56,176 bases of DNA from Candidatus Nomurabacteria bacterium (GTDB lineage: Bacteria > Patescibacteriota > Minisyncoccia > Phycocordibacterales > UBA9973), in NCBI GenBank assembly GCA_027347985.1, contig DAIEQH010000001.1, positions 1-56,176 on the forward strand, read 5' to 3'. A program made the translations under genes and the position numbers. Under the pieces are notes generated by a model. The model was not told the origin of the DNA and did not search any database. It saw only the letters and a list, made by a program, of their open reading frames with translations. Every line of letters starts with the position of its first letter. The first letter of the stretch is position 1. Positions 13,534 to 54,651 of the stretch are shown piece after piece.

Positions 13534-16281
13534 TTATTGCATCGTAGAATACCTTGCCATGATTTCTTTCTCCACTTCTTCTCTATCGCGTCCGTATTTC
13601 ATATAAGAAAGTTGTTTTAGATTATCTACAATTTCCGGATTACCATTTTCCGGTGGCAAAGTTTTTATATTGAAAGGTTTCGTCGGCTGGCCGTGCACAA
13701 GCATACTCATATAGGCATTGTAATTATCAAGTTTGGTAATATCTTGGGCACTAAAGATTGGTTTAAATTTTGGCTCAAGAAAAGTCGCATCATCTGTCCC
13801 CACACGAAAGACAGCCATGGAGCCGACGTTACCAAAAACTGCATTTTTTATATTTTCTTCAAGTTGTGTGATATATTGGTGAGCAATGTTTAAAGATAAT
13901 CTGTATTTACGAGCTTCAGATAAAATAGAAGCAATAGAATCAGTCGTCACATTTTGAAATTCATCTATGTAAAGATAAAAATCATTCATCGGCTTACCAA
14001 ACATGTCTACTCTTGAGAGTGCAGCCATTTGAATCTTGCCGACAAGCACGAGACCAATCAAATTTGCATTGATATCTCCAAGTCGTCCTTTAGAAAGATT
14101 GACTAAAAGTATTTTCTTCTCATCCATTATTTTTCTAAAGTTGAAAACTGAGTTTTGTTGAAGTACGACTGGACGCATTATGTCATTTGAAATAAAATTA
14201 TCAAATTTAGAAGAAATATATGGCACAAAGTTCGCTAGCGATTGATCTCCCGTTGTCTGTTCGGCAGAAACCCAAAATTGTTTGATGATTGGGTTCTTGC
14301 ATTTAGCAATTTTCATATCTCGGAATTCTTTATCCGCTAAAACTCTGGTAATTTCAAGCAAGGTTGAGCCTGATTCCGGGTCTTCCATCACAAGAAAGGC
14401 ACTATTTCTAAAATATTGTTCGAACATTGCTCCGCCTCCGACTTTCATATCAAAAAGTTTATTAAATATGCCCATCATTTCATTAACTACGAAAGTCTTC
14501 TGTTCTGGATATTTTGGGTCATACTCTAGCATGTTAAGCCCCATCGGTCGCATAGTATAAGCTGGGTCAAAATAAATGACATCATCAATACGTTCTTTCG
14601 GAATACGAGAAAGAATAGTTTGAATATCTGTGCCGTGTGGGTCTATATAACAACAGCCATCGCCATTTTTTATATCTTGAGTAATCATATTGAGCATAAT
14701 ATTTGTTTTACCTGTACCCGTCTGACCTATAACATAGAAATGCCTCATTCTGTCTTCTCGTGACAAATGAACTATAGTGTCTTTGCCTCTGTAACTATTC
14801 ACCCCTAAAACAATTCCTTCTTGTCCCATTTCAAGAGGAGCCGGAGCGATGCCAGCTTTTGCTTCTTTCAATTGAGGTTGACTACCGATACCGACTGGGA
14901 AATGAAAAACAGAAGAGAGTTCTTTTAGATTCATCGGCAAAATTTTGTCACTAGAAAATGTACGATAAGAAAAATCATGAAAAAGTTTTCTTAAATCATT
15001 GCCTTTCAATTTTTCAAAAACAAAAGAGTTGCTAGCTGGCTCAGTAAATTGATTGAAGGATGATTCTATCTCTTTTAATATCCCCTCTGCCCTTTCACTC
15101 TCCTCTGCAGAAGTGATGATACGAATATTGGCTTTCATAATGGTGCTTTTCATTTTATTAGCTATTTTTTCTGCTGCTCCTTCGTCCACAGCACGCCTCC
15201 CGGGCATATGTTTGTTTTCACCTTCTTCTTTCTTCTTAGATCCACCTGTAAATGTATCTACCAACTCTCTCCTAAACTTATAAAAACCATCATCAGCATA
15301 TTTGATAGACATTCCTTTTTTGACATCATGCAAAATCGCACTGAATTGATTGATAAATTTCTCTCCAGCAGGCGCCACTACGAGTTGTATAGCTGCTCCT
15401 TCGCCTTGCGTCTTTAATTTTGAAAAAACATTCAAAATAATATTCATTGGGTCGTGATCTATCTGGTCATAAGTCTTTATCGGAAGTACAGAACGTTCCG
15501 TAAAGCTCGCATAAGCACCCGCCGAACCACCACGCTCATTAAAAATATTGTAATCATCTGACACTTCGTGGACTTTCGCATCATGATAAAAAGAAAGCAC
15601 TTGTTTTTCAAAAAGAGAAAGATGTTTGTTTGGTACCCCAGCAAACACGACAACTTGATCGGATGCATTACTGAGCGCCACTTCTAGAGTGAAATAATTT
15701 TCTTTTTCATTATTCTTTCCTTCAGAGATAGATTGCATGCCAGCATAAAATTGCTCCATCGCACCGATAAAATCCTTAAAACCTTTTTGCTTATCTGCTT
15801 CTTCTCTAGGAGGAGGAAGAGTAATTTCAAAAAGAGTCATGTTTAATGATTTATAAAGAGGAGTACCTGTTTTTATATCAAACAACTTTCCACCTTTTAA
15901 GTACTGAATGAGTATTCGATGAAAATCGTCATCTATATGTGGACTATTCATTTTTTCTACGACAGCCAGAGCGTTGCGTACTCCTTTAGTGATGACGATT
16001 CCTAAAAGTTCCTCCATTATATTGTCGTGTGATTCTGGTTTTAATGCGAGAACGATACTTTCTACTTCTTTATTTTTTATAACATTGTCTTTATGTATAA
16101 CTTCTTCAATCGGTTTTTCTTTGTAAGCATTGACAACTTCTTTAACTGCTTTTTCATTTGCATCTTCATGGCCTCTATCAATGAGTTCTTGTTCTTTTCT
16201 TGCAACATGTGCACGCAAATAGTTCAACTCTTCTTCTGGAGTTTTAAATTTTGGAGCTTCATTTAAAAATGCTTCCGCCAT
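13534..16281 (-). CDS. TraD/VirD4/TrwB-type coupling-protein-like NTPase fused to a large N-terminal module (ATPase 1)
   Basis: 915 aa. The C-terminal half has Walker A GQTGTGKT, YIDPHG, Walker B FYLYIDEFQN and EARKYRLSLNIAHQY. The N-terminal ~480 aa include a module homologous to ORF 52235-53530. No TM segment is apparent. Confidence 0.75.
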   Translation of the reverse strand: MAEAFLNEAPKFKTPEEELNYLRAHVARKEQELIDRGHEDANEKAVKEVVNAYKEKPIEEVIHKDNVIKNKEVESIVLALKPESHDNIMEELLGIVITKGVRNALAVVEKMNSPHIDDDFHRILIQYLKGGKLFDIKTGTPLYKSLNMTLFEITLPPPREEADKQKGFKDFIGAMEQFYAGMQSISEGKNNEKENYFTLEVALSNASDQVVVFAGVPNKHLSLFEKQVLSFYHDAKVHEVSDDYNIFNERGGSAGAYASFTERSVLPIKTYDQIDHDPMNIILNVFSKLKTQGEGAAIQLVVAPAGEKFINQFSAILHDVKKGMSIKYADDGFYKFRRELVDTFTGGSKKKEEGENKHMPGRRAVDEGAAEKIANKMKSTIMKANIRIITSAEESERAEGILKEIESSFNQFTEPASNSFVFEKLKGNDLRKLFHDFSYRTFSSDKILPMNLKELSSVFHFPVGIGSQPQLKEAKAGIAPAPLEMGQEGIVLGVNSYRGKDTIVHLSREDRMRHFYVIGQTGTGKTNIMLNMITQDIKNGDGCCYIDPHGTDIQTILSRIPKERIDDVIYFDPAYTMRPMGLNMLEYDPKYPEQKTFVVNEMMGIFNKLFDMKVGGGAMFEQYFRNSAFLVMEDPESGSTLLEITRVLADKEFRDMKIAKCKNPIIKQFWVSAEQTTGDQSLANFVPYISSKFDNFISNDIMRPVVLQQNSVFNFRKIMDEKKILLVNLSKGRLGDINANLIGLVLVGKIQMAALSRVDMFGKPMNDFYLYIDEFQNVTTDSIASILSEARKYRLSLNIAHQYITQLEENIKNAVFGNVGSMAVFRVGTDDATFLEPKFKPIFSAQDITKLDNYNAYMSMLVHGQPTKPFNIKTLPPENGNPEIVDNLKQLSYMKYGRDREEVEKEIMARYSTMQ

Positions 16282-18960: not shown

Positions 18961-18995
18961 ACTAGAGCCTAGTGCCTAAAGCCTAATGCCTAGTC
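18961..18995. repeat. NNGCCTA heptamer array (site 2, single arm)
   Basis: agagcct-agtgcct-aaagcct-aatgcct-ag, abutting and overlapping the dnaJ stop codon. Confidence 0.8.
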
Positions 18996-19978: not shown

Positions 19979-21469
19979 TTATATCATAGGTTCTGCTTCC
20001 TGAGAAGCCACCTTTTTTGTTTCTGTTTCAGAAGTTTTTTCTTCTCCTTCACTTTTATTTTTCTTCCCTTTTCCTTCAATTATTGCTTTCTCTTCTGCAC
20101 TTCGGATAATCGTTGCCTCTTCTTCTTCAATAAGTTTTTGTGCGTCACCTTTGGAGATTGAATATTTCCTGCGAGATGCATCTAAAATTTCTTGACGATA
20201 TGAAGGATGAGTCGGAGGTAAAACTCTCAAAGATTCTGCAGAAAATGGATCGTAAGATTCTCCGTCAATAGTCATTTTGATATAAAATTCTGCCACAGCC
20301 AAGTTAATCATATCTTTCACACCGAACAGAGGCTCGAATTCTGGTTTTAATTTGACGGCATCTTCTCCACCGACTCTGAAACAAATGAGACTTCCTGTGT
20401 TTCCGAGCACTGCGTGTTGCACTTGTGGAATAAGCTGTCCGATGTACTGGTGCGCTATTGTCAGATTAAGAGCATATTTTCTAGCTTCTGACAAAATGTT
20501 TTCAAATGTTTGAGTGACAATGTTGTGGAACTCGTCTATGTACAAATAAAAGTCTCGACGTTCTGCTTCTGGAATACTTGCACGCTCCATTCCAGCTTGT
20601 TTTATTTTCGTCAAGAACATTGAACCGAAGAAACTTGAATTTTCTTCTCCAATGCGTCCTTTGGAAAGATTAATGAAAATGATTTTCCCTTCATTCATTA
20701 AGTCGCTGATATCTATTTTGTTTTGTTTCTGTCCGAAAATATTTCGGAGCAATGGGTCAGAGAGAAATTGTCCGAGTTTGTTGACTAGCGGAATGATAGC
20801 GTCCGTATCAAACTTCTCGGACCAATCCGCGAATTCAATAGCGAAGAATCTTTTAACCATGTCGTCAGTAATATACTCCACCACTTTCTGTCTGTAATTT
20901 CTGTCCGTCAACATTGAAATCATTCCGCGCATTGTGGCATGAGGATAATCAAGAAGTGCAAGGCAAGTGAAACGGAAAACGTGCTCTAAACGAGGAGTCC
21001 AGTTTGCTCCGAATTGTTTCTGCAAGACTTCGATTAAACCTTGAGTCAATTGAAACTTGAACATAGGATCGACATTCGCAAGCGGATTGAAGGAAGCTGG
21101 AAATTCAACATCTCCCGGGTCTATGACACAAATATCTTCTATGCGCTCTTTCGGAATATAATCAAGCATCGCGTCTATGACATCTCCGTGTGGGTCTATC
21201 AGACAAAGCCCGTGATTGTAAGTGACATCCTGACGGATAAGGAGCTCCAAGAGCTTCGTTTTACCAACGCCAGATTTTCCTACTATATATAGGTGTCTTC
21301 TACGGTCTATGCGTTTAATACCAAAGATAAATTTCTTCTCTTCTAGAGAAGCCACATAATTTGTGCGCCCAATAAAAGAAACCTCCTCAGGTTTAACTTT
21401 TCCAAATACTGGTAATTCTGGTGGAGGTGGTCCATATTTGATTATTTGCACTCGGTTCTGTCTTAACAT
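19979..21469 (-). CDS. TraD/VirD4-like coupling-protein-type NTPase, soluble (ATPase 2)
   Basis: 496 aa. Walker A GKSGVGKT, LIDPHGD, Walker B FYLYIDEFHN and EARKYALNLTIAHQY. The C-terminal tail is acidic/Lys-rich. No TM segment. Confidence 0.75.
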   Translation of the reverse strand: MLRQNRVQIIKYGPPPPELPVFGKVKPEEVSFIGRTNYVASLEEKKFIFGIKRIDRRRHLYIVGKSGVGKTKLLELLIRQDVTYNHGLCLIDPHGDVIDAMLDYIPKERIEDICVIDPGDVEFPASFNPLANVDPMFKFQLTQGLIEVLQKQFGANWTPRLEHVFRFTCLALLDYPHATMRGMISMLTDRNYRQKVVEYITDDMVKRFFAIEFADWSEKFDTDAIIPLVNKLGQFLSDPLLRNIFGQKQNKIDISDLMNEGKIIFINLSKGRIGEENSSFFGSMFLTKIKQAGMERASIPEAERRDFYLYIDEFHNIVTQTFENILSEARKYALNLTIAHQYIGQLIPQVQHAVLGNTGSLICFRVGGEDAVKLKPEFEPLFGVKDMINLAVAEFYIKMTIDGESYDPFSAESLRVLPPTHPSYRQEILDASRRKYSISKGDAQKLIEEEEATIIRSAEEKAIIEGKGKKNKSEGEEKTSETETKKVASQEAEPMI

Positions 21470-25045: not shown

Positions 25046-27130
25046 TTATTCCAAAATTTTTCTTAAAACATCTTCTGGAACTTCTTTAGAATTTATTTTA
25101 GGAGGTGTAGGTATAGCAATTTCCTCTTTCTTTTCTTCCACTTTTGGAACTTCTTCTGTTTTTATATTAGTAGATTGAATAAAATTCTTTAACTTATCCA
25201 TGTCTTCCTTACTTGCAGATCTATCTTTTAAGGTATTATTGGAAACCGGTTTATTATTCTTTAATTCATCTAGTGAAATGGAAGGTTCTGGTATTTTTTC
25301 AACTTTTTTTATTTCTGGTTCTATTTTTTTCTCTTCTTTTTTATTGTCTAAAATTTTATTTTCATTGAGTGTCTTATTTAAAATTTCTCTCAATGCTAGA
25401 TTTTCTTTTGGTTTTTCTTTAACAAAAACTTTCTTAATTGCTGAAAACATTTTTGGACGTGCTGAAGCTGTCGTAGATATGGTAGAAGTTTCTTTAGTTG
25501 GAATTTTTTTCTGATATTCTTGTGTTAAAGGTTTATCTACTCTTTCTGGATATCTTTCATCTTCCCCGTTTTTATCTTTTGATAAGAATTCAATACCCAA
25601 ATCAGACAATGGTTTATAAAATTTACTTTCATCTTGTTTAATCTGTTTAATAGAACCGGCAAGTGGCTTTAATTCCCCAGATTTTATTTTAGCAATACAA
25701 TCTTTACAATATACTGCCCTGCCTGCTTCTGGTTTGAAAGGCACCATTGTTTCTTTCTTACAGATAGAACATACAGCTGGAAACTTCTCTACTCCGCCTA
25801 TCGCATTGTCGTCACCGACAGACATACCACTCCAATCATTTATTTCTCTTTCTACCACTTCTCTTGGACGACAATAGAGCTCGCGGGAAGTTTTAATAAC
25901 TTCGTCTTCAACTTCTTTATTTCCAGATTTAACCATAGGTGGTAAGGTTTTTGCAGAAAATGGGCGTGAGGTTATGCCATCTATCATCAGCTTTAAATAA
26001 ATTTTGAAGTTTGGTAAATTCACAATATCTTGAGGCACAAATTCTGGTTCAAATTCTTTTTCTAAAAATTCTGCATCATCTGCACCCACTCGGAAAACTA
26101 TCATCGTACCAACGTTACCGAAAATGGAATCTCTGACGCTAGAATTTTTCTCCGATATGAGCTGAGCGGTATATTGATGAGCCACCGTCAGATTCAATCT
26201 ATATTTTCTAGCCTCAGACAAAATACTAGCGAAAGCATCCGTCACGAAATTTTGGAATTCGTCTACGTAAAGATAGAAATCTTTTCTTTCATCTTCTGGG
26301 ATACGTACACGTTCCATGGCAGCAAGCTGAATCTTAGTGATGATCATTCCTCCTAGAAGCGAAGAGTTATCCTCACCGATGCGTCCTTTAGAAACATTCA
26401 CCAAAAAAATTTTTCCTTCATTCATTATGTCAAAAATATTTATTGTGCTTTTTGATTGACCGACAATATTTCTGATGATGGATGTGGAAAGAAATTGCCC
26501 GACTTTATTTTGGATAGGAGCAATAGCTTCATTTCTAAATTTATCCTGCCAAGCTTCATACTCGTGAACCCAGAAAGCTTTTATAACAGGGTCTTTTAAA
26601 TTTGAAATTATTTTCTGACGGTAATCTTTGTCCACCAACATTCGGGGTATGCCTAAAAGCGTCGAACCCGGAGTATCAAGCAATGCCAAAATCGCATTAT
26701 TTAAAATATATTCCATACGAGCACTCCAAGCATTCGCCCAAATTTTTGTGAAGATGCCCATCAATCCTGAAGCGACTAGATGCTTGTATTTCGGGTCAAT
26801 AAGTTCCAAGACGTTAAAACCGATATGGTGTTCCGTGTCGGCTGGATTGAAATAAATAACATCTTTCATGCGATGTGGCGGAATAGCCGATAAAATAGCT
26901 TCAACATTTTCTCCATGCGGGTCAACCATACAAACACCGTCACCATTTTCAATGTTCTGGATAATCATGTTGAACATTAGGGCAGATTTACCGGTACCAG
27001 ACTTTCCGAGAATATAAACATGCTGGCGTCTATCTTTACGTTTAATGCCAAAAAGCACATTTTTGTCTCTATAAGTAGTGTAACCAATATAGGTGAGTTC
27101 TTTATTTTTAGGTATTTCCTTTAATTCCAT
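25046..27130 (-). CDS. TraD/VirD4-like coupling-protein-type NTPase with a C-terminal CxxC-x17-CxxC zinc ribbon and a Lys/Glu-rich tail (ATPase 3)
   Basis: 694 aa. GKSGTGKS, VDPHGE, FYLYVDEFQN and EARKYRLNLTVAHQY. The ribbon CSIC-KKETMVPFKPEAGRAVY-CKDC is at nt 25697-25771. Its stop is 16 nt from the start of paralog 3. Confidence 0.75.
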   Translation of the reverse strand: MELKEIPKNKELTYIGYTTYRDKNVLFGIKRKDRRQHVYILGKSGTGKSALMFNMIIQNIENGDGVCMVDPHGENVEAILSAIPPHRMKDVIYFNPADTEHHIGFNVLELIDPKYKHLVASGLMGIFTKIWANAWSARMEYILNNAILALLDTPGSTLLGIPRMLVDKDYRQKIISNLKDPVIKAFWVHEYEAWQDKFRNEAIAPIQNKVGQFLSTSIIRNIVGQSKSTINIFDIMNEGKIFLVNVSKGRIGEDNSSLLGGMIITKIQLAAMERVRIPEDERKDFYLYVDEFQNFVTDAFASILSEARKYRLNLTVAHQYTAQLISEKNSSVRDSIFGNVGTMIVFRVGADDAEFLEKEFEPEFVPQDIVNLPNFKIYLKLMIDGITSRPFSAKTLPPMVKSGNKEVEDEVIKTSRELYCRPREVVEREINDWSGMSVGDDNAIGGVEKFPAVCSICKKETMVPFKPEAGRAVYCKDCIAKIKSGELKPLAGSIKQIKQDESKFYKPLSDLGIEFLSKDKNGEDERYPERVDKPLTQEYQKKIPTKETSTISTTASARPKMFSAIKKVFVKEKPKENLALREILNKTLNENKILDNKKEEKKIEPEIKKVEKIPEPSISLDELKNNKPVSNNTLKDRSASKEDMDKLKNFIQSTNIKTEEVPKVEEKKEEIAIPTPPKINSKEVPEDVLRKILE

Positions 27131-43785: not shown

Positions 43786-43883
43786 CTCTCTCTCTTATTT
43801 AATTTAATTAATTAAATTGTTGGTTGTGCAAATTTTTACTTAGAATACTCTCTCTCTTTACATGTCAAGCTTTATGTGTTTGT

Positions 43884-44592
43884 ACACAAATACATAGGAA
43901 TTTCCTATGTATTTGTGTTATACTAAAGTATATGGCTCTAAGAAAACAAGATTTTGAAATAGATGAGTATTATCATTTATACAATCGTGGCACAGAAAAA
44001 AGAATAATTTTTTTAGATGAACAAGATTATAAACATTTTCTGTTTTTAATGTATATTTGTAATACACAAAAAAGTATTGTTTTAAGAGAAATTGATGAAC
44101 TTTTTGATCGAGGAGAAGCTATCATTGAAATAGGAGCATACTGTTTAATGCCAAATCACTTTCATATTCTCGTGCGTGAAAAAATAGAAAATGGTATTTC
44201 AACATATATGCGTAAATTATTAACTGCTTATTCAATGTACTTCAATAAAAAATACAAGAGATCTGGTAAATTATATGAGGGTGTATTCAAGTCAATTCAC
44301 ATAGATAAAGATAATTACTTAAAATATATTTACTCATATATACATTTAAATCCTGCAAAACTAATAGATAAAAATTGGAAAGAAAAGAAGAAAAAAAATG
44401 TTAATAAACTGTTTAATTATGTTTTTTCTTATCTGTATTCTAGTTTAAGAGAGTATAAAGATAAAAAATATAAAATTATAAATCCATCAAAATTCCCTAA
44501 TTATTTTGAGAACCCCAGTGATCATAAAAATAAATTATTAGAATGGCTTAGTTTTAACAACTTAGAGAATACATAGGAAACTCCTGTGTATT
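43884..44592 (+). mobile_element. IS200/RAYT-like single-gene element bracketed by aatacatagga..tcctatgtatt hairpins
   Basis: A perfect 17+1+17 palindrome is at 43884-43918, upstream of the gene. A related hairpin at 44568-44592 overlaps the stop codon. The 709-bp span is IS200-sized. Confidence 0.6.
43932..44576 (+). CDS. IS200-like / REP-associated tyrosine (Y1, HUH) transposase family protein
   Basis: YHLYNRGTEKRIIF, CLMPNHFHILV and YSYIHLNPAK. It is a paralog of 3885-4565. The start was set at MALRKQ (43932) rather than the track start at 43824. Confidence 0.75.
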   Translation: MALRKQDFEIDEYYHLYNRGTEKRIIFLDEQDYKHFLFLMYICNTQKSIVLREIDELFDRGEAIIEIGAYCLMPNHFHILVREKIENGISTYMRKLLTAYSMYFNKKYKRSGKLYEGVFKSIHIDKDNYLKYIYSYIHLNPAKLIDKNWKEKKKKNVNKLFNYVFSYLYSSLREYKDKKYKIINPSKFPNYFENPSDHKNKLLEWLSFNNLENT

Positions 44593-44612: not shown

Positions 44613-45929
44613 TTATTTTGGATAATTTACAATAACATCTATAGTTTTACTTACATCCGGGAAAGTCGTTTTCCAAAAAGGACGGATAACTAAAACAGCA
44701 GTGTCTATGCTAGGATACCCCGTCAAAATCTGATTGAAATCACTTTTTTTCTTCCCTAGCAAATCAGCAACAAATTTCTCTTCATCTATTTTCCAAATAA
44801 TTTTTGGAGTACCTGTGAGGTTGAAATTAATATCTTTTACATCAGCAAAAGAAACATTTTCTTTATCCGCCAAAGAAAAGGTCAAATCACGAATATTTGG
44901 AATATAGACATCACTATCATCATATTTATCAATGATATCTTGCGCAATCTTTTTTGTTAATTTTTGTTCGTTGAGAAGAAAACCATAAAGGGTGCCCTTA
45001 ATATCAACTGTCACCATATTGTTATCGCTCGGAACAAAACTGACATCCTTATCGTCAATATTTAAGAAAATTGCATCTTTATATAAAATAAATCCATCTG
45101 GAATTTGATCTGTCACCTTTTTTAAGAGTTTAGCTTGTAAAGTAGCTTTTAGTTCACTTACCGTGCCTGCTTTATCAAGAGAAGAAACAACCGGCATTTT
45201 CCCTTTTAACCCTCCAGTGATTTCCCCTTTTGAACGAGCAAAGATTTTGGAATATTTTGAAGTGTTTTTCAAGCTTACAATTTTAAAATCTAAAGGTGCA
45301 CTATTGTATTCTGCTCCGGCTTCTGCCGCATAGATACCGACTTCAACATTTCCTGGTTTACCAGCTTTCGTCATTCCTGGAACAGTCACTTTTTTGCTAG
45401 TTTTATAAATTTTTCCATTGGAGCCTTCAAGTTTTGTGTCAGAAGCAAATACTTGAGGAGAAGTGCTAAAAGAATTGTAAATCAAAACTGTACCAGTCGC
45501 TTTCAAAGTGATATCCTTCATCTCTCCACCTTGTATCGTTTTATTTTCTTCTCCAGAAATAACTACTAAGTCAAAAGAAAGACCAGACGTACCGTCTTTT
45601 GAAGCAGACAAATTGTCGTTTAAGGGGATATCTTTTACTTTCGGAGTTAATGTAATTTTAGCCCCAGAAAATAAATATGAGAGGGCAAAAAGAAGAAAAA
45701 TAATTGAAATTAGAGCAACTAGATAAATCCTGTATTTTGGTTTTCTGTTGGTTGATTTAGAAATTCTTCCTCCTCCTATGTTGGCATAGCTTTCAGTATT
45801 GCGAACATATTTCCCCACATCTGCATTGGCTGTATTGCGGGCAGGTCTTATGCTTTCAACTTTTTTCTCTACAATTTTTTCTCTTGTAGGAACCTTTTTT
45901 ACCATGTCTTGTAATAGATTTCTTGCCAT
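44613..45929 (-). CDS. Membrane-anchored hypothetical protein (single TM after a ~65-aa cytoplasmic head, large extracytoplasmic domain)
   Basis: TM segment IYLVALISIIFLLFALSYLF. There is a 9-nt gap to the upstream PilM/FtsA-like gene. Confidence 0.5.
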   Translation of the reverse strand: MARNLLQDMVKKVPTREKIVEKKVESIRPARNTANADVGKYVRNTESYANIGGGRISKSTNRKPKYRIYLVALISIIFLLFALSYLFSGAKITLTPKVKDIPLNDNLSASKDGTSGLSFDLVVISGEENKTIQGGEMKDITLKATGTVLIYNSFSTSPQVFASDTKLEGSNGKIYKTSKKVTVPGMTKAGKPGNVEVGIYAAEAGAEYNSAPLDFKIVSLKNTSKYSKIFARSKGEITGGLKGKMPVVSSLDKAGTVSELKATLQAKLLKKVTDQIPDGFILYKDAIFLNIDDKDVSFVPSDNNMVTVDIKGTLYGFLLNEQKLTKKIAQDIIDKYDDSDVYIPNIRDLTFSLADKENVSFADVKDINFNLTGTPKIIWKIDEEKFVADLLGKKKSDFNQILTGYPSIDTAVLVIRPFWKTTFPDVSKTIDVIVNYPK

Positions 45930-45938
45930 AGTTATATT

Positions 45939-47114
45939 CTACCAGATAAAACGATTAATATAAATGGATTCAATTATTAAAAATGGATCACGAGCAACTT
46001 CATCTTGAAAAGCTGCAGTGCCATGAAGGTTTTCTTTATTCAAAAAGATAATTTTAAATTCCGATTCAGTGAAAGTATATTGGCTAAATTGTTCAGTTCT
46101 GATAATTTCTCCAAAGAAATCTGCTAATTCCTGATCTACTGTTATAAAAATAGTTGAAGGGACAGAAATATTATCAGAAAGCTTAACCAAAGATTCTTGG
46201 AATCCCTTGAGCCATTCCGCTTTTAATTTACTTATAATAGGTTCCAGTTTTTCTTCAACAGACTTTTCTGCATGTCCATCTTTGTAAAGAGAAATAAATG
46301 ATTTCGCTTCACTTAAAGAGCAGCCTAAAGTTTCTGCTACTTTGCGTATCATAAAATTGCGCCCTAAGGGAAAAGAAATGGAGCTACTCAATATGTCTTT
46401 TCTTATCATGGATATATCCGTCACTTCCCCAGCGATATCAACTAAAAGAAAATTATCCTGCTTTACAAACATGTCTCGAGCTACAGCAAAAGATGCCATT
46501 GCAAAAGAAGAAAACTTTATTTCTTTTAAATGAAAATGTCTGAATACTGTTTCTTCTATCTTCTTCAAAATTTGATCTCCACTCATTGAGATAAAGACAA
46601 CCATTTCGAGCATTTTGGCTTTTTTATTGATAGGGTCAGCTACCATATAACCATTCAAGGAGGTTTTCATATTCCTAAGCTCGATTGACCTTACTTTACT
46701 ATTAACATCCAAAGATTTAACACCATGTTCTTCTTCAAAAAGAACTATCTCTTTCTCTATCAAATCATCTGCGAGTTTAGTGGTAAAAATAAAAGGCGCA
46801 TTTTTTTCAAGTTTTATTATTCTAGTTGCTGAGGCATAAAAAGGAGAAGAAAGTACGCAAAAAACTTTCGCTGGTTTGCCAATATTTGCTGAATATATTT
46901 TACTTGCTACAGCATCTAATGCTTTTAAAGTTAGAGACAAAAACTTTTCCGTATCTAATTTTTCTTCAAAAATTATAGGCTCACGAAAAACCCCAATTAT
47001 TCTAGGAATTCCTCCTTTTTTGATTTCAAAAAGAGCTCCTCCTACAGAAGAAGATCCAATATCAAAAACTAACGCCAACTCTCCACTACCTTTTTGTCTA
47101 GAAAAGATTCCCAT
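45939..47114 (-). CDS. Actin-fold ATPase of the PilM/FtsA type
   Basis: Phosphate-1-like LVFDIGSSSVGGALF and phosphate-2-like LLVDIAGEVTDISMI. Confidence 0.6.
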   Translation of the reverse strand: MGIFSRQKGSGELALVFDIGSSSVGGALFEIKKGGIPRIIGVFREPIIFEEKLDTEKFLSLTLKALDAVASKIYSANIGKPAKVFCVLSSPFYASATRIIKLEKNAPFIFTTKLADDLIEKEIVLFEEEHGVKSLDVNSKVRSIELRNMKTSLNGYMVADPINKKAKMLEMVVFISMSGDQILKKIEETVFRHFHLKEIKFSSFAMASFAVARDMFVKQDNFLLVDIAGEVTDISMIRKDILSSSISFPLGRNFMIRKVAETLGCSLSEAKSFISLYKDGHAEKSVEEKLEPIISKLKAEWLKGFQESLVKLSDNISVPSTIFITVDQELADFFGEIIRTEQFSQYTFTESEFKIIFLNKENLHGTAAFQDEVARDPFLIIESIYINRFIW

Positions 47115-50759: not shown

Positions 50760-51287
50760 TTATAGTTTCATCAGCTTTTTGTAAAGCTCGTAGGTTGCGT
50801 AGGCGTCTGACAGCGCACTATGAGGATGTTCATTTTTTATATCAAAAAGCTTACACATTTCGCGCAAAGAAAAATGTTCAAAACTCCTTGTCTTATTAAA
50901 TTTCGCCCAAGCTATGGAGATGGTATCTAACTTGTGATAATGCATAGCGTTTTTGATTTTTAATTTCGCAAAGTTGTATTCCAAAAAGAGAGAATCGAAA
51001 GAAACATTTTGCCCCACCATGATGCAATCTTTTACTTTCTCAGAAAGAATTTTCATTGCTTCTTCTAGAGAAGAAGCTTCTTTCCAATCTTCTTTATTGT
51101 AATGAGTGATTTTGAGGGAAATAGGCTCGGCATTTTTTATCTTTTTTGGTTTTATTTTTAATTCAAATTTTTCAATTACTTTCAATTTCGGTGTCGTGAT
51201 AACAGCCCCAATCTGAATAATCTCATGCTTTAATACATTGAGTCCTGTCGTTTCTATATCGATAAAAGCTAAATTATGTTTTCTCAT
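50760..51287 (-). CDS. DEDDh 3'-5' exonuclease (DnaQ/epsilon-like)
   Basis: AFIDIETTGLN (ExoI), VGQNVSFD (ExoII) and HSALSDAYAT (ExoIII). Confidence 0.8.
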   Translation of the reverse strand: MRKHNLAFIDIETTGLNVLKHEIIQIGAVITTPKLKVIEKFELKIKPKKIKNAEPISLKITHYNKEDWKEASSLEEAMKILSEKVKDCIMVGQNVSFDSLFLEYNFAKLKIKNAMHYHKLDTISIAWAKFNKTRSFEHFSLREMCKLFDIKNEHPHSALSDAYATYELYKKLMKL

Positions 51288-52228
51288 TTTAAGTATTTCG
51301 CTTTATTTAATTTATGCTCTGCGAAAGTTGTAGCATAGTGAATATTACCATCTTTGTCGTGTAGATAATAAAGATATTCTGAAAATCTCGGATGTATTGC
51401 TGCTTCTATGGCTTTCAACCCTGGATTACAAATAGGCTCTTTGGGCAACCCTTTCGTCTTATAAGTATCAAGATCTGTATCCACCTGTAAAGGCATACCT
51501 ATTTTAATCCTCTTCCATAAAATACCCGAAATAAAAGCGCGATCTATATCACCCTTTGATTCACCTTCAATTAAAGAAGCCATAATTATTATTTCTTTTT
51601 CCGTCTTGCCCGAAGAGAGAATTTGAGATTTCAAAGGCGTTATTTTTTTCTCAAAATTATCACTCATGGATTTGATGACATTTTCTTCGTTGTCTGTCGT
51701 TAGAAAAAAATAGGTATCGGGGAAAAGATATCCTTCCATATTTTTCACTTCTGACAAAAACTTATCTTGATTGAAATTTGGCAGTTTAGAAGCAACAGTT
51801 TTTGAAATGTCAGAGATATCAAATCCTTCAGGAATGGTTATTTTGACTGGAGCTAAATTTTTCTCGCCTTTAGAAATACGCCTAGCAATTTCAAAAACAG
51901 ACATTTTGTTTTCAAAAAAATAATCTCCTGCTGTTATATGTTTTTCACCTCCAAAAATAATCACAGAGGTTTCAAAAACAGCTCTAGAACGAATAATATT
52001 TTCTGTCTCTAAATCTTTAGAGATAGACCTCAGACTTGCTCCCTCTTTTATATTAACTATCACCCCTGCTGGAAAACTGGAAGGTGCACTAAAAACAAAA
52101 AAATAAACAAACAAAAAAAATATAATTATGCTGACAACATAAAAAATATTTTTTGAAGGCAATTTAGACATCGGATGTGGAAATCCGACTTGTCCAAGTT
52201 CATTGTTTGATGAAGGTAAGTTTTCCAT
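51284..52228 (-). CDS. mltG: Endolytic murein transglycosylase MltG (YceG-like)
   Basis: N-terminal TM segment, GYLFPDTYFF, and ASLIEGES (catalytic Glu region). Confidence 0.8.
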   Translation of the reverse strand: MENLPSSNNELGQVGFPHPMSKLPSKNIFYVVSIIIFFLFVYFFVFSAPSSFPAGVIVNIKEGASLRSISKDLETENIIRSRAVFETSVIIFGGEKHITAGDYFFENKMSVFEIARRISKGEKNLAPVKITIPEGFDISDISKTVASKLPNFNQDKFLSEVKNMEGYLFPDTYFFLTTDNEENVIKSMSDNFEKKITPLKSQILSSGKTEKEIIIMASLIEGESKGDIDRAFISGILWKRIKIGMPLQVDTDLDTYKTKGLPKEPICNPGLKAIEAAIHPRFSEYLYYLHDKDGNIHYATTFAEHKLNKAKYLK

Positions 52229-52234
52229 AGTAAG

Positions 52235-53530
52235 TTATACCGGCAAATTGGTAGGAGGAGAAGCTTCTTTGGATTCAATACGTTCCAAGGTAGGAACCTT
52301 TAATATTTGACCAGGGAAATGCCAAAGAGTAGCCAACTCTTCAGAGTTTAAAATACTTATATGATGATGAAAAAAGTTTGGAAAAATAAGAGGAGAAAGT
52401 GGCCAAGGCAAATGTATTTTATGTCTCATCGGTGGATGAAAAAATTCTCGCTCCCTATATTCTTCGAGCATTCTGTTTGCTAAGCGAGTAATTTTTTTAC
52501 TTGAGAGTGGAAAAAAGGAAGCTATAAAATTTGGACTAAAAGCATCTGCCTGAGTTGAATTTATACGCCAAAGTTCATTCACAAAAGGCATAGCATATTG
52601 TCGAAAAATTAGACGAATGTTTCTTCTATTACTCATATTAAATAATTCTCTTTTTGCAACATAACAAACTCTGATACCAGTCTCAAAACCAACTTTCAAC
52701 ATTTTTCTTCCAGCACCTTCCATCATAGGCCTTAAGAAATCAGGAGAACGAACTTCTTTTGAAAATGTCCCGTCTGGTCTTTCACGAAAACCTGTAAACT
52801 CTTCTAGAGCTTTTAAAATTACTTTTCTACCTTCTTCTATCCAATCATGATGTCCAAACCAAGTTCCTTTAGTGTGATACTTTCTTTGGCAAGGAGTGAC
52901 AACGATCTGCATCCACATCTGCTCTCCTTTTCCTATTGAACCAAAAAGTTCTATTACCGGAGAGATAGGATCAACTTTTTGTTCTTCTTTCGGATCTTTG
53001 TCTAAACCAAAATCAATATAAGTTTTTATTGGATATACATCGGCTCTTTTTAATCTAAATTCACAACCCCATAAATTGTATTCACTATCTCCTGTGATTT
53101 TATCAACAGCTAATGTATAATCTTCCACTTCTTTTACTTGAGCTTGTGGAAATTGTGCATACATCTGAGTTTCAAGTAAACCTTTTACACGAGAAGGTGC
53201 ACGTACATAAAAATGCACTTGCCCATCAATAGAAGCTATTTCTAACGAAAACCAAAACCACACGGCACCTTGCCAATATGTTTCTAATCCGCTTTTTTCA
53301 CTCCAGTGATATAGGGCATTAGTGATAAAAAGCTCCATTGCTTTTGGAGATCTCAAAACATCTCGCGGAGGGACTATTTCCAACAAAACCCATTCAATAC
53401 CCGAAATAAAATTTGCCTGTACATAGTGAAGCCAAAATTTGTAAGCAGTAATAGCAAGAATAATAAATCCTGCAATAGGCAAAATACTTAGAAATATTCT
53501 ATAAATCCAAAAGATGATTAAATCTATCAT
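52235..53530 (-). CDS. Membrane-anchored protein homologous to the N-terminal module of ATPase 1
   Basis: 431 aa with N-terminal TM helices. LLEIVPPRD, KAMELF, FSLEIASIDGQVHFYVRAPS, AQVKEVEDYT, YPIKTY and EELATLWHFPG parallel LFEITLPPPRE, GAMEQF, FTLEVALSNASDQVVVFAGVPN, AKVHEVSDDY, LPIKTY and ELSSVFHFPVG in 13534-16281. Confidence 0.6.
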   Translation of the reverse strand: MIDLIIFWIYRIFLSILPIAGFIILAITAYKFWLHYVQANFISGIEWVLLEIVPPRDVLRSPKAMELFITNALYHWSEKSGLETYWQGAVWFWFSLEIASIDGQVHFYVRAPSRVKGLLETQMYAQFPQAQVKEVEDYTLAVDKITGDSEYNLWGCEFRLKRADVYPIKTYIDFGLDKDPKEEQKVDPISPVIELFGSIGKGEQMWMQIVVTPCQRKYHTKGTWFGHHDWIEEGRKVILKALEEFTGFRERPDGTFSKEVRSPDFLRPMMEGAGRKMLKVGFETGIRVCYVAKRELFNMSNRRNIRLIFRQYAMPFVNELWRINSTQADAFSPNFIASFFPLSSKKITRLANRMLEEYREREFFHPPMRHKIHLPWPLSPLIFPNFFHHHISILNSEELATLWHFPGQILKVPTLERIESKEASPPTNLPV

Positions 53531-53622: not shown

Positions 53623-54651
53623 TTACGCTAGAGTATAAAGGCCGTTTTTGTTTTTCTTGAAGAATTTAGGATTGACAAGATTAACTAAAATAGTATTTTT
53701 CTTGAAATATCTTTCTTTCATTACTTTTTCTACCACATCGTCTTTAGAAAGCGGACCTTCCCTTTTCAAGATATCTCGAATGACTTCTCGTGCGATACCC
53801 GTTTTATATCCCCATTCAGCAAGAGCATAAAGACCTCGGCCAACTAAAACAAAGCGAGTATCTTTGATGAGTTCGTTGTGACAAGTAGCATAGTGAGTTT
53901 TTCTACCGAAAGTTTTAGAGATAGCATCAGCAACTTCTTTAAAATGCATAGGAGAGCCATGACGCCTCATAACAAGAAAAGCATAATCTTTCACTCCACG
54001 AGTGCGAACGTTTGGAGAGCCAGATCTACCCCATTCGCCTAATGGATTTTTAGAAATAGTTTTAGAGATAGAAAGCCATCTTTTAGCAATTTCTTCATTT
54101 CTGTACTGATCTGAAACATCTTTCATTTGATCAAAAAACTTTTTAATCATTTCTGCTTCCAATATAAGATCTTGATCATTTAAACTTGCATAAAGCTTCT
54201 TTAGAGAGTCATGAACTTTTTCTGCCATTGCATCATCTACACTCCAACGAGTTTTAAAATGATCATCCTCTCTATGTTTTTTGAAAAAATCTCCTAGTTC
54301 CAAATAAAAATGTATGTGATTTTGAGTATTTTTATCTTTTGAAATATGTGCTAAAAGATCATGCTCTGCAACAATAGACCCTAAAGAATGTATCAACTCT
54401 TTAAGTTCTTCAAAAATAGCTTGCTCTTCTTTGTAAGCAGGAGATTTCTTGATCAAAGCGAGTGCTGCGTCTTCAATCTGACGGACACGCTCTCTCGTGA
54501 TATTGTATTTTTTACCTATTTCTTCAAGAGTCTTTCTTTCTGCATCAGCTGTCAAGCCAAAACGATTCATGATGACATCGCGAGTACGATCCTGAAGGTG
54601 TGAAGTTATTTTTTTAGTGACTTGTTTTGGTTTGAAAGTTATTGTTGCCAT
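53623..54651 (-). CDS. Sigma-70 region-4-like HTH protein with a C-terminal HARE-HTH-like domain
   Basis: LEEIGKKYNITRERVRQIEDAAL (region 4.2-type HTH). The C-terminal HFKEVADAIS..ELIKDTRFVLVGRGLYALAEWG resembles the HARE-HTH of the RNAP delta N-domain. Confidence 0.6.
   Translation of the reverse strand: MATITFKPKQVTKKITSHLQDRTRDVIMNRFGLTADAERKTLEEIGKKYNITRERVRQIEDAALALIKKSPAYKEEQAIFEELKELIHSLGSIVAEHDLLAHISKDKNTQNHIHFYLELGDFFKKHREDDHFKTRWSVDDAMAEKVHDSLKKLYASLNDQDLILEAEMIKKFFDQMKDVSDQYRNEEIAKRWLSISKTISKNPLGEWGRSGSPNVRTRGVKDYAFLVMRRHGSPMHFKEVADAISKTFGRKTHYATCHNELIKDTRFVLVGRGLYALAEWGYKTGIAREVIRDILKREGPLSKDDVVEKVMKERYFKKNTILVNLVNPKFFKKNKNGLYTLA

What the first reader, a model, noticed from the sequence alone, without database searches (positions are those of the whole stretch)
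52235..53530. Rosetta-stone link: a membrane-anchored ORF equals the N-terminal module of ATPase 1, and ends where ATPases 2 and 3 begin
ORF 52235-53530 has N-terminal TM helices. It then aligns motif for motif with part of the N-terminal ~480 aa of ATPase 1 (about aa 140-480):
- LLEIVPPRD / LFEITLPPPRE
- KAMELF / GAMEQF
- FSLEIASIDGQVHFYVRAPS / FTLEVALSNASDQVVVFAGVPN
- AQVKEVEDYT / AKVHEVSDDY
- YPIKTY / LPIKTY
- MWMQIVVTP / AAIQLVVAP
- EELATLWHFPG / ELSSVFHFPVG

The ORF stops at ..PPTNLPV. In ATPase 1 the chain continues there (..APAPLEM..) into the NTPase domain. ATPases 2 and 3 start at that same point (..PPPELPVFG..).

ATPase 1 therefore looks like a fusion of two parts that are encoded separately elsewhere. 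That predicts the TM protein is the membrane partner or anchor of the soluble ATPases. It would be a split version of the TM-plus-NTPase design of coupling proteins.
Basis: partly seen in the sequence, partly recalled or inferred. Interest (0 to 1): 0.7.

Follow-up and report, generated by a model that had tools for sequence, protein, structure and literature searches.

The report
Membrane anchor split from secretion-type ATPase
A membrane-anchored protein in this ultra-small (Patescibacteria) bacterium is the detached front half of a conjugation-type motor ATPase, probably tethers a soluble ATPase encoded elsewhere to the membrane, and so points to a partner for the many unexplained "orphan" coupling-protein genes of these bacteria.

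Summary
ORF 52235-53530 (minus strand, 431 aa) has one N-terminal membrane helix. Over aa 30-430 it is homologous to aa 121-486 of ATPase 1 (BLASTP E=6e-9; profile-profile 98.7%, E=1.5e-16). Homologues of both carry Pfam PF26449 (DUF8128), so the shared module is already catalogued but unstudied.

New here:
- A confident model (pLDDT 92) resembles the VirB4 (TrwK) ATPase of plasmid R388, by inference its N-terminal domain, and not a coupling-protein membrane domain.
- One Bacillus-phage family (phrog_5156) matches the membrane ORF with its front half and ATPase 3 with its back half. That is a second fused form.
- In 18 of 162 related loci (1-2 clades) an ATPase 3-like gene lies directly downstream, always as a separate gene.
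- The family nearly always ends at an almost invariant tail (..EELATxxHFPG..PPxNLP[IV]). This is its best-conserved block, and it is modelled as extended.
- ATPase 3 starts within about 8 residues of that end. ATPase 2 overlaps it by about 30.

The partnership is inferred (confidence about 0.55); no interaction was tested. I rate it a new variant of a known kind, interest about 0.55.

The parts
52235..53530 (-). TM-DUF8128 gene (431 aa): one N-terminal membrane helix, a VirB4-like cytoplasmic domain (by inference like the VirB4 N-terminal domain), and a conserved C-terminal tail.
   Evidence: ORF. Homologues carry PF26449 = DUF8128. 1683 50%-identity clusters at E<=1e-3. AlphaFold2 model with pLDDT 92.1.
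53429..53530 (-). Membrane-anchor segment (aa 1-34).
   Evidence: Kyte-Doolittle 19-residue windows >=1.6 span aa 1-34, maximum 2.35. Modelled as helix 2-43.
52301..53398 (-). DUF8128 globular alpha/beta domain (aa 45-410).
   Evidence: hhalign to ATPase 1 aa 121-486, E=1.5e-16. Foldseek: the top 14 PDB hits are all TrwK/VirB4. BFVD hits to phage JL, G and Slash proteins at E about 1e-14. Matches phrog_5156 profile positions 63-194.
52238..52300 (-). C-terminal tail (aa 411-431, ..KVPTLERIESKEASPPTNLPV). Proposed docking peptide for the ATPase.
   Evidence: The last 11 residues are the most conserved block of the protein (3.0 bits per column). Nearly every family member ends at NLP[IVL]. The tail is modelled as extended, with pLDDT 62-84. 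The docking role is inferred.
13534..16281 (-). ATPase 1 (915 aa): soluble helical N-terminus, then DUF8128 (aa 121-486; nt 14824-15921), then a VirD4/TraD-like P-loop ATPase (aa 487-915). This is the fused form.
   Evidence: Matches phrog_5156 over aa 147-914 at E=6e-82. No membrane segment.
25046..27130 (-). ATPase 3 (694 aa): soluble VirD4-like ATPase that begins where DUF8128 ends. It carries a CxxC-x17-CxxC zinc finger (aa 449-481) and a Lys/Glu-rich tail. Most likely partner of the membrane ORF.
   Evidence: Pfam and NCBIfam hits. Matches phrog_5156 profile positions 375-804. Its orthologues (46-62% identity) lie directly downstream of TM-DUF8128 in 18 loci. Junction alignment.
19979..21469 (-). 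ATPase 2 (496 aa): soluble paralogue that keeps the linker motif at its N-terminus (NRVQIIKYGPPPPELPVFG, aa 5-23; nt 21401-21457).
   Evidence: Homologues are 84-91% identical and the N-terminal motif is almost invariant among them. 47% identical to ATPase 3 and 33% to ATPase 1.
53623..54651 (-). Upstream neighbour (342 aa) with Sigma70_r4 and HARE-HTH DNA-binding domains. Near-constant partner in gene order.
   Evidence: Pfam. Found immediately upstream of TM-DUF8128 in nearly all 160 loci that have upstream sequence, including those where the ATPase follows.
51284..52228 (-). Downstream neighbour mltG (YceG), 6 nt after the ORF's stop codon. Context only, probably not part of the machine.
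   Evidence: Pfam YceG, E=1e-62. Downstream in about 85% of loci, but replaced by the ATPase in 18 loci.

Best explanation
The ORF encodes the membrane-anchored, separately encoded N-terminal module (DUF8128) of a two-module ATPase of the FtsK/HerA superfamily. The catalytic module is VirD4/TraD-like.

Proposed mechanism:
- One N-terminal helix holds the protein in the cytoplasmic membrane, with the roughly 390-aa DUF8128 domain on the cytoplasmic side.
- That domain, whose predicted fold matches VirB4, most likely its N-terminal domain, recruits a soluble hexameric ATPase. ATPase 3 is the prime candidate; ATPase 2 is possible.
- Together they rebuild in trans the architecture that ATPase 1 and the phage phrog_5156 proteins have in one chain.
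- The nearly invariant, free C-terminal tail (..HFPG..R[IV]xSK..PPxNLP[IV]) is proposed to be the docking peptide. It corresponds to the inter-module linker of the fused proteins.
- The assembled machine would be a chromosomal membrane translocase that is not part of a type IV secretion system. The substrate is probably DNA, given the ATPase family and the constant adjacency of an HTH DNA-binding gene. A protein substrate is not excluded.

Shown: the homology, the domain boundaries, the fused forms, the predicted fold, the gene orders and the conservation pattern. Inferred: the match being to the N-terminal domain of VirB4, the physical interaction, the role of the tail, the topology and the substrate.
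For: 1. Module homology: BLASTP E=6e-9; hhalign 98.7%, E=1.5e-16. PF26449/DUF8128 is pre-assigned to homologues of both proteins.
2. Two independent fused forms. ATPase 1 is one. Phage family phrog_5156 is the other: it matches ATPase 1 across its length (E=6e-82), the membrane ORF at profile positions 63-194 (E=8e-8) and ATPase 3 at positions 375-804 (E=2e-67). Phage G gp156 matches the DUF8128 profile at 97%, E=8e-11.
3. Gene neighbourhood. An ATPase 3-like gene lies directly downstream on the same strand, from a short overlap of open frames up to about 0.5 kb away (mostly under 100 nt), in 18 of 162 loci. A 19th locus, L101, has one about 1 kb downstream.
4. Residue-level complementarity: the ORF ends, and ATPase 3 begins, within about 8 residues of the same ATPase 1 position.
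5. The tail is the most conserved block (3.0 bits per column) yet is modelled as extended at lower confidence. This is typical of a partner-binding peptide.
6. Fold. The top 14 PDB hits are all TrwK/VirB4 (probability 0.91-1.00). No other P-loop ATPase is listed among the 50 hits shown, which points to the N-terminal domain of VirB4. In BFVD, phage G gp155 (VirB4-like) and a protein named 'type IV transporter component' also match.
7. ATPases 1-3 have no membrane segment and have intact Walker A motifs (sequences).
8. Literature. Patescibacteria hold 5,713 VirD4-like homologues, of which only 148 are near virB4, and their function is open (PMC12102498). Anchoring of VirB4 by VirB3, and the proposed anchoring of the coupling protein TraJ by TraI, are precedents (PMC12857230).
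Against: - In this window the ORF is 25-38 kb from the ATPases. In about 85% of related loci its downstream neighbour is mltG, not an ATPase.
- The ATPase-adjacent arrangement maps to only two neighbouring clades, so it reflects 1-2 events.
- No full TM-DUF8128-ATPase fusion was seen in the 160 loci surveyed.
- The VirB4 link is structural only and modest: TM-score 0.28-0.36 normalised to the query, rmsd 8-11 A. The tool did not report which residues of TrwK were aligned. Profile-sequence comparison with TrwK, TrsD and TrsE found nothing.
- No interaction prediction or co-occurrence census could be run.
- ATPases 2 and 3 sit in a conserved dnaK / Cys-rich-protein / dnaJ cluster. This may point to a different functional context.
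Confidence: 0.55

Rival explanations
1. Shared ancestry only. TM-DUF8128 is a paralogue that lost its ATPase and now works independently of ATPases 2 and 3. It could act, for example, as a membrane scaffold with the adjacent Sigma70_r4/HARE-HTH protein or in the cell-envelope context of mltG. The soluble ATPases would then act as free hexamers.
For: The order HTH gene, TM-DUF8128, mltG holds in about 85% of 160 loci, with only 6 nt between the ORF and mltG in this window. The ATPases lie 25-38 kb away, inside a separate conserved dnaK-dnaJ cluster. ATPase adjacency has only 1-2 origins. The DUF8128 of ATPase 1 is only 22-24% identical to the ORF, so the split is ancient.
Against: Where the gene order changed, it is the ATPase 3 orthologue that was placed directly after the ORF, in the same order as the domains of the fused proteins. 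That order was then kept across a deep clade. The ORF's end and ATPase 3's start are complementary. The invariant free tail equals the inter-module linker. mltG often sits near alaS in other bacteria, which would explain its presence without a functional link (my own recollection, not tested here).
Confidence: 0.27
2. The partner is ATPase 2 and not ATPase 3, or both compete. ATPase 2's N-terminal PPPPELPVFG peptide mimics the ORF's tail. It would either bind the same site or bind the DUF8128 domain.
For: ATPase 2 carries a near-invariant N-terminal motif that resembles the ORF's tail (R[IV]..PPxxLP). A few family members extend to ..P.GLPIFG.., as in ATPase 2. ATPase 2 is extremely conserved, at 84-91% identity.
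Against: Every ATPase found next to TM-DUF8128 is closer to ATPase 3 (46-62% identity) than to ATPase 2 (42-46%). ATPase 2 overlaps the ORF's tail instead of complementing it.
Confidence: 0.12
3. Artefact. The ORF is a fragment of a disrupted fused gene (frameshift, assembly error or pseudogene), not a real stand-alone protein.
For: None found. In L053 the ORF and the ATPase are in the same frame, separated by a single stop codon.
Against: There are 1683 50%-identity clusters at E<=1e-3 (547 at E<=1e-30), and nearly all of the 150 best listed are 400-460 aa long and end at the same NLP[IVL] tail. Synteny is conserved in 160 loci. A stop codon is always present even when the ATPase follows. The monomer model is highly confident.
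Confidence: 0.01

Closest known systems
Pfam PF26449 (DUF8128)
   Same: Homologues of the ORF (up to 94% identical) and of the ATPase 1 N-terminus are pre-assigned to this family. The shared module is therefore already one catalogued domain, including architectures with DUF87, TrwB_AAD_bind and TraG-D_C.
   Different: It is a domain of unknown function. No paper in the searched library mentions it. The local Pfam copy did not report it for the ORF.
PHROG family phrog_5156 (Bacillus phage CP-51 gp91, phage G gp156, phage JL 'MsbA-like'; function unknown)
   Same: It has the same two-module architecture as ATPase 1, which matches it end to end at E=6e-82. The ORF matches its front part and ATPase 3 its back half. 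gp156 matches the DUF8128 profile at 97%. The BFVD structure hits have E about 1e-14 and TM-score 0.47-0.52.
   Different: The phage proteins are single chains without a clear N-terminal membrane anchor. In CP-51 the gene sits next to a Replic_Relax gene and near an actin-like segregation gene. No split, membrane-anchored version was seen in phages.
VirB4 with VirB3 (for example TrwK/TrwM of plasmid R388)
   Same: A large N-terminal domain precedes a FtsK/HerA-type ATPase domain. The N-terminal domain contacts the membrane and is anchored by the small membrane protein VirB3 (PMC12857230). The DUF8128 model's best PDB matches are all TrwK.
   Different: No sequence-level similarity was found. 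The catalytic domains here are closer to TrwB/VirD4 (E 5e-8 to 7e-7) than to TrwK. There are no virB genes in the window. The split here falls between the two ATPase modules, not between VirB3 and VirB4.
Type IV coupling proteins (VirD4/TraD/TrwB), and the split case of pIP501 TraJ anchored by TraI
   Same: The ATPase domains hit TrwB_AAD_bind, T4SS-DNA_transf, TraG-D_C and SXT_TraD. In pIP501 the coupling protein TraJ is proposed to be anchored to the membrane by a separate small protein, TraI (PMC12857230).
   Different: All hits are far below the NCBIfam equivalog cut-offs. The proposed anchor is one helix plus a 390-aa folded domain, not a small two-helix protein. No relaxase or type IV secretion genes are nearby. 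These belong to the Patescibacteria VirD4-like homologues, most of which are unlinked to virB4, that PMC12102498 says may have been exapted.
TrsD/TraD of pGO1/pSK41 (a stand-alone protein remotely related to the VirB4 N-terminus, encoded just upstream of the VirB4 homologue TrsE)
   Same: It is a precedent for a separately encoded VirB4-N-terminus-like protein directly upstream of its ATPase. Such proteins are abundant in Patescibacteria (2,272 homologues, PMC12102498).
   Different: TrsD is 227 aa and shows no detectable similarity to DUF8128 (hhalign probability <1%). The Patescibacteria TrsD genes are mostly next to virB4, which this ORF is not.

Membership tests
Pfam PF26449 (DUF8128) | Significant match to the family model. 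| tested here: met
   Indirect. PF26449.1 is pre-assigned to nearly all of the 120 listed homologues (63-94% identity) and to homologues of the ATPase 1 N-terminus. The local Pfam copy returned no hit for the ORF itself, apparently because it lacks this model.
phrog_5156 (phage two-module ATPase) | Profile match. | tested here: met
   ORF: E=7.9e-8, aa 75-224 against profile positions 63-194. ATPase 1: E=6.2e-82 across the full length. ATPase 3: E=1.9e-67 against positions 375-804.
phrog_5156 (phage two-module ATPase) | Both modules in one polypeptide. | tested here: not met
   The ORF stops after ..NLPV. A stop codon is present in every locus examined, even where the ATPase follows. ATPase 1 does meet this feature.
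VirB4 (type IV secretion ATPase) | VirB4-type N-terminal domain fold. | tested here: inconclusive
   Foldseek: the top 14 PDB hits are all TrwK, with probability 0.91-1.00, but TM-score is only 0.28-0.36 and rmsd 8-11 A. The aligned residues of TrwK were not reported, so the assignment to its N-terminal domain is an inference. BFVD hits to VirB4-like phage proteins are supportive.
VirB4 (type IV secretion ATPase) | Sequence match to VirB4 models or proteins. | tested here: not met
   No Pfam or NCBIfam VirB4 hit for the ORF. hhalign against TrwK gives probability 0.3%. A PDB profile search gives nothing relevant.
VirB4 (type IV secretion ATPase) | Encoded with virB3/virB6/virB8 or other mating-pair genes. 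| tested here: not met
   The window holds housekeeping genes only: RecG, FtsH, IF3, Ndk, DnaK/DnaJ/GrpE, AlaRS, MnmA, MltG, BipA.
Type IV coupling protein (VirD4/TraD/TraG) - applies to ATPases 1-3 | P-loop nucleotide-binding domain with an all-alpha domain. | tested here: met
   TrwB_AAD_bind, T4SS-DNA_transf and TraG-D_C hits pass Pfam cut-offs for ATPases 2 and 3. phmmer to TrwB structures gives E=1.3e-4. BLASTP to TrwB gives E 5e-8 to 7e-7.
Type IV coupling protein (VirD4/TraD/TraG) - applies to ATPases 1-3 | N-terminal membrane domain in the same chain. | tested here: not met
   No hydrophobic window >=1.6 in ATPases 1, 2 or 3.
Type IV coupling protein (VirD4/TraD/TraG) - applies to ATPases 1-3 | Curated equivalog score, and linkage to a relaxase or type IV secretion genes. 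| tested here: not met
   NCBIfam scores of 43-50 bits against cut-offs of 250-650. No relaxase or secretion genes in the window.
TrsD/TraD family (stand-alone VirB4-N-terminus-like protein) | Sequence similarity to TrsD. | tested here: not met
   hhalign of both DUF8128 profiles against pSK41 TrsD gives probability 0.2%.
Anti-phage defence systems (PADLOC) | Match to a defence-system protein model. | tested here: not met
   The ORF has no hit. The ATPases hit only generic mad8 and HerA P-loop models.

The most novel reading that the evidence does not exclude
Paceibacteria carry a chromosomal, core membrane translocase that is independent of type IV secretion. Its proposed parts are an HTH DNA-binding protein, a membrane-anchored VirB4-N-terminal-like adaptor (TM-DUF8128) and a zinc-finger VirD4-like ATPase. 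Cys-rich proteins and the DnaK system may also take part. It would be a VirB4/VirD4 hybrid lineage shared with Bacillus phages (phrog_5156). This would explain a large share of the thousands of 'orphan' coupling-protein genes in Patescibacteria. It would also be informative about how the two ATPases of conjugation systems diverged.
Probability: 0.3. Interest if true: 0.75.

Novelty: new variant of a known kind. Interest (0 to 1): 0.55.

Why it matters
A 2025 survey (PMC12102498) found 5,713 VirD4-like coupling-protein homologues in 2,918 Patescibacteria genomes. Only 148 lie near virB4, and the authors left open that these genes were exapted for another function. The present finding gives such soluble ATPases of this class (Paceibacteria, by the record titles) a concrete candidate partner. 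The candidate is conserved and membrane-anchored, its boundaries are defined, and a specific docking peptide can be mutated.

It also ties these ATPases to an uncharacterised Bacillus-phage family. And it suggests an architecture that mixes a VirB4-like N-terminal domain with a VirD4-like motor, which bears on how the two conjugation ATPases evolved. If the partnership is real, the pair can be tested directly by pull-down, AlphaFold-Multimer or cryo-EM, in a group of bacteria that is very hard to grow.

Tried and rejected
- Local Pfam and NCBIfam scans of the ORF returned nothing, even at E<=10 across all 81 family members.
- PADLOC gave no hit for the ORF.
- A literature search for DUF8128 / PF26449 found no papers.
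- The first AlphaFold2 run used 27 close homologues. It gave a poor model (pLDDT 62) and meaningless Foldseek hits. A run with 81 diverse sequences fixed this.
- A sequence-profile search of the PDB gave only chance hits.
- hhalign of the DUF8128 profiles against R388 TrwK and against pSK41 TrsD, TrsE and TrsC gave probabilities <3%. The VirB4 link therefore rests on structure only.
- I looked for a motif shared between the ..ELxxxxHFP.. region and VirB4 or VirD4 proteins upstream of Walker A. None was found, and the weak ATPase 1-TrsE BLAST alignment is unconvincing.
- I searched 160 loci for a complete TM-DUF8128-ATPase fusion. Apparent single tblastn alignments across the junction (L053, L097, L153) all contain a stop codon.
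- I considered mltG adjacency as a functional link. I discounted it because mltG is displaced exactly where the ATPase appears.
- I considered that the ORF is a gene fragment or pseudogene and rejected this on the conservation data.
Full report
**What is there**

The finding's coordinates hold an intact ORF on the minus strand (52235-53530, 431 aa, ATG start). All genes discussed here are on the minus strand:
- ATPase 1: 13534-16281, 915 aa.
- ATPase 2: 19979-21469, 496 aa.
- ATPase 3: 25046-27130, 694 aa.

The window is a housekeeping stretch of a Patescibacteria chromosome of the Paceibacteria/Nomurabacteria type. It encodes RecG, FtsH, IF3, an RNase J-like enzyme, Ndk, MetAP, DnaJ, DnaK, GrpE, AlaRS, MnmA, MltG and BipA, and it has no type IV secretion genes.

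**Check of the observation**

BLASTP of the ORF against ATPase 1 gives E=6e-9 (aa 45-318 against aa 146-418). I built a 27-sequence alignment of the ORF's family and a 47-sequence alignment of the ATPase 1 N-terminal family. hhalign between them gives probability 98.7%, E=1.5e-16 and 330 aligned columns, covering ORF aa 30-430 and ATPase 1 aa 121-486.

The ORF has one strongly hydrophobic segment (aa 1-34). ATPases 1-3 have none.

The shared module is already one Pfam family. PF26449 (named DUF8128) is pre-assigned to homologues of the ORF and to homologues of the ATPase 1 N-terminus, the latter often together with DUF87, TrwB_AAD_bind or TraG-D_C. The local Pfam and NCBIfam copies gave no hit for the ORF. 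No paper in the library mentions the family.

**The junction**

In a local alignment the ORF's last residues (..SPPTNLPV) align with ATPase 1 ..APAPLEM. ATPase 3 begins within about 8 residues of that point. ATPase 2 begins about 30 positions earlier and carries its own copy of the linker motif (..RVQIIKYGPPPPELPVFG..). That ATPase 2 N-terminus is almost invariant in 120 homologues that are 84-91% identical overall.

So the ORF and ATPase 3 are complementary, while ATPase 2 overlaps the ORF's tail. Across the ATPase domains, ATPase 3 is 46% identical to ATPase 1 and 47% to ATPase 2. ATPases 1 and 2 share 33%.

**The family**

An exhaustive HMMER search found 1683 50%-identity clusters at E<=1e-3 and 547 at E<=1e-30. 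Of the 150 best, nearly all full-length members are 400-460 aa, have 1-3 N-terminal hydrophobic helices, and end at the same place..N[TS]EELAT[IL][FYW]HFPG....TP...R[IV].SK...PP.NLP[IVL], then the stop codon.

In an 81-sequence alignment with about 30-45% identity to the ORF, the last 11 residues are the most conserved block of the whole protein (3.0 bits per column). A few members run on as ..P.GLPIFGDE.., which resembles the ATPase 2 N-terminus.

**Structure**

With 27 close homologues AlphaFold2 gave a poor model (pLDDT 62) and no meaningful fold hits. With the 81 diverse sequences it gave pLDDT 92.1 and pTM 0.90. The model has:
- a long N-terminal helix (aa 2-43);
- an alpha/beta domain up to about aa 410, which includes the EELATLWHFPG helix at pLDDT 95-98;
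- an extended C-terminal tail at pLDDT 62-84.

Foldseek against the PDB puts 14 chains of one protein on top: TrwK, the VirB4 ATPase of the R388 type IV secretion system. Probabilities are 0.91-1.00, E-values 4.6e-4 to 9e-3, TM-scores normalised to the query 0.28-0.36, over about 380-460 columns. No other P-loop ATPase (TrwB, FtsK, HerA, isolated VirB4 catalytic domains) is listed among the 50 hits shown, and the ORF has no Walker motif. I therefore infer that the match is to the N-terminal domain of VirB4. The tool does not report aligned ranges, so this remains an inference.

Against predicted viral structures the matches are much stronger:
- Bacillus phage JL (913 aa), phage G gp156 (825 aa) and phage Slash (551 aa): E about 1e-14, TM-score 0.47-0.52.
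- Phage G gp155 and a protein named 'component of type IV transporter system': weaker hits.

gp155 is a VirB4-like ATPase; it hits P-loop_TraG, AAA_10 and DUF87.

At sequence level nothing links DUF8128 to TrwK, or to pSK41 TrsD, TrsE or TrsC. The catalytic domains of ATPases 1-3 are closer to TrwB/VirD4 than to TrwK.

**A second, independent fused form**

tblastn of ATPase 1 against phage genomes finds 52 records, nearly all from Bacillus or Geobacillus phages. For CP-51 and S4-1 the alignment covers aa 209-911, so it includes part of DUF8128 as well as the ATPase.

PHROG family phrog_5156 (function unknown; 824 profile positions) matches:

| Protein | E-value | Protein residues | Profile positions |
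|---|---|---|---|
| ATPase 1 | 6e-82 | aa 147-914 | 27-811 |
| ORF | 8e-8 | aa 75-224 | 63-194 |
| ATPase 3 | 2e-67 | aa 5-430 | 375-804 |

Phage G gp156 also matches the ORF-family profile directly (hhalign 97%, E=8e-11). The phage proteins thus show the same two modules in one chain, independently of ATPase 1.

In CP-51 the gene (gp91) is followed by a Replic_Relax DNA-binding protein and lies near an actin-like segregation protein. In phage G it follows the VirB4-like gp155.

**Gene neighbourhood**

I scanned one genome per species (80 loci, L003-L082) and metagenomes (80 loci, L087-L166), then ran tblastn with the window's proteins.
- The order Sigma70_r4/HARE-HTH gene, TM-DUF8128, mltG holds in about 85% of loci, down to about 30% protein identity.
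- In 6 genome loci (Niyogibacteria and relatives) and 12 of 77 metagenome loci with room downstream, mltG is replaced by an ATPase gene directly downstream on the same strand.
- In all of these the ATPase is closest to ATPase 3: 46-62% identity, against 42-46% to ATPase 2 and 39-43% to ATPase 1.
- The two genes are always separated by a stop codon after ..NLP[VI], and mostly by fewer than 100 nt. In L101 one gene is inserted between them.
- On a neighbour-joining tree of 162 family members, the ATPase-adjacent loci form two neighbouring clades of 3 and 15 members. The arrangement therefore arose once or twice and was then retained.
- The HTH gene stays upstream in these loci too, which gives a three-gene unit: HTH gene, TM-DUF8128, ATPase.
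- In L153 a homologue of the window's Cys-rich paralogues follows the ATPase.

**Context of the soluble ATPases**

In the window and in two other Paceibacteria contigs the order is dnaK, ATPase 3 (with its zinc finger), two to four Cys-rich proteins of about 560-600 aa with no Pfam hit (and an ABC transporter in one contig), ATPase 2, dnaJ. I did not follow this further.

**Interpretation**

Shown:
- The ORF is a genuine, widespread stand-alone protein.
- Its cytoplasmic domain is homologous to the N-terminal module of ATPase 1 and of a phage family.
- ATPase 3 equals the other half.
- In one deep clade the two halves are encoded side by side, in domain order.
- The ORF's conserved free tail corresponds to the inter-module linker.

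Inferred:
- The ORF binds ATPase 3 (and perhaps ATPase 2) and holds it at the membrane.
- The tail is the docking element.
- The domain faces the cytoplasm. This follows from homology to the cytoplasmic ATPase 1 and from the single Lys just after the helix.
- The substrate is DNA.

I put the partnership at about 0.55. The main rival (about 0.27) is that the ORF is a diverged paralogue working independently. The arguments for that are its distance from the ATPases in most genomes and the few origins of adjacency.

**Comparison with known systems**

The design works like VirB3/VirB4, where a membrane piece anchors an N-terminal domain that sits on the ATPase. [quoted passage not shown] TrsD/TrsE of pSK41 is a precedent for a separately encoded VirB4-N-terminus-like protein upstream of its ATPase (PMC12857230, PMC12102498).

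It is not a member of any of these families by sequence, and it is not linked to type IV secretion genes. The ATPases belong to the Patescibacteria VirD4-like homologues, most of them not linked to virB4, whose function PMC12102498 leaves open.

**Novelty and score**

The domain and its fused architectures are already visible in Pfam, so the bare Rosetta-stone link is implicit in databases. I found no literature on it. The following appear to be new:
- the VirB4-like fold;
- the phage family link;
- the operon evidence;
- the conserved tail;
- the ATPase 3-specific complementarity.

I class the finding as a new variant of a known kind, with interest about 0.55.

Noticed in passing
window 17233-18936, 21549-23234, 23278-25029, 33179-34888, 35002-36780, 36822-38492 (all minus strand): Six paralogous Cys-rich proteins of about 556-592 aa with many CxxC pairs, an N-terminal motif such as CQNCKKDFTIE..FYEKIKVPPPTFCPECR, and no Pfam family for the three I scanned. 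They are interleaved with ATPases 2 and 3. Equivalent runs of 2-4 such genes lie between ATPase 3 and ATPase 2 in two other Paceibacteria contigs (L170, L171). One follows the TM-DUF8128/ATPase pair in L153. They may be partners or substrates of the ATPases.
   Followed up: partly
window 18995-39042: The chaperone genes are spread over about 20 kb: grpE (38461-39042), dnaK (28805-30712) and dnaJ (18995-19882). ATPase 3, ATPase 2, an ABC transporter and the Cys-rich genes lie between them. The order dnaK, ATPase 3..., ATPase 2, dnaJ is conserved in other contigs.
   Followed up: partly
window 53623-54651 (minus strand): A 342-aa protein with Sigma70 region 4 at its N-terminus and a HARE-HTH domain lies immediately upstream of TM-DUF8128 in nearly all 160 related loci. 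This is the most constant neighbour, kept even where mltG is replaced by the ATPase. It also hit the PADLOC MzaA model through its sigma region.
   Followed up: partly
window 25688-25786 (minus strand; ATPase 3 aa 449-481) and its C-terminus: ATPase 3 carries a CxxC-x17-CxxC treble-clef zinc finger (PF23477, TIGR04272) followed by a long Lys/Glu-rich low-complexity tail. The ATPase 3-like genes next to TM-DUF8128 in other lineages end instead with a conserved ..[IV]LKPG[DEQ].I[KR]F motif.
   Followed up: no
window 3885-4580 (minus strand) and 43824-44576 (plus strand): Two IS200-like Y1 transposase genes (PF01797), paralogous to each other. Homologues also occur a few kb from the TM-DUF8128/ATPase pair in L038 and L057.
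   Followed up: no
L167 (Bacillus phage G, gp155-gp156); L168 (phage CP-51, gp90-gp96); L169 (Geobacillus phage TP-84): Bacillus and Geobacillus phages encode DUF8128-ATPase fusion proteins (phrog_5156) that are annotated as 'MsbA-like lipid A export permease' or as hypothetical. In phage G the gene follows a VirB4-like ATPase, gp155, which PHROGs labels 'terminase large subunit' (phrog_2666). In CP-51 it is followed by a Replic_Relax protein and lies near an actin-like segregation protein. These annotations look wrong or uninformative.
   Followed up: partly
window 30812-31363 (plus strand): A PaaX_M (Cas2-like fold) protein is encoded on the opposite strand between dnaK and the ABC transporter, overlapping the latter's 3' end by 33 nt. 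A weak homologue lies about 0.4 kb downstream of the ATPase 3-like gene in L057, and another lies in L101.
   Followed up: no
window 44613-45929 and 45939-47114 (minus strand): Two adjacent genes (438 and 391 aa) without Pfam hits. Genes of matching size, also without Pfam hits, occupy the same position after AlaRS in L001. The second begins like an actin-fold (FtsA/PilM-like) ATPase; this is judged by eye only.
   Followed up: no
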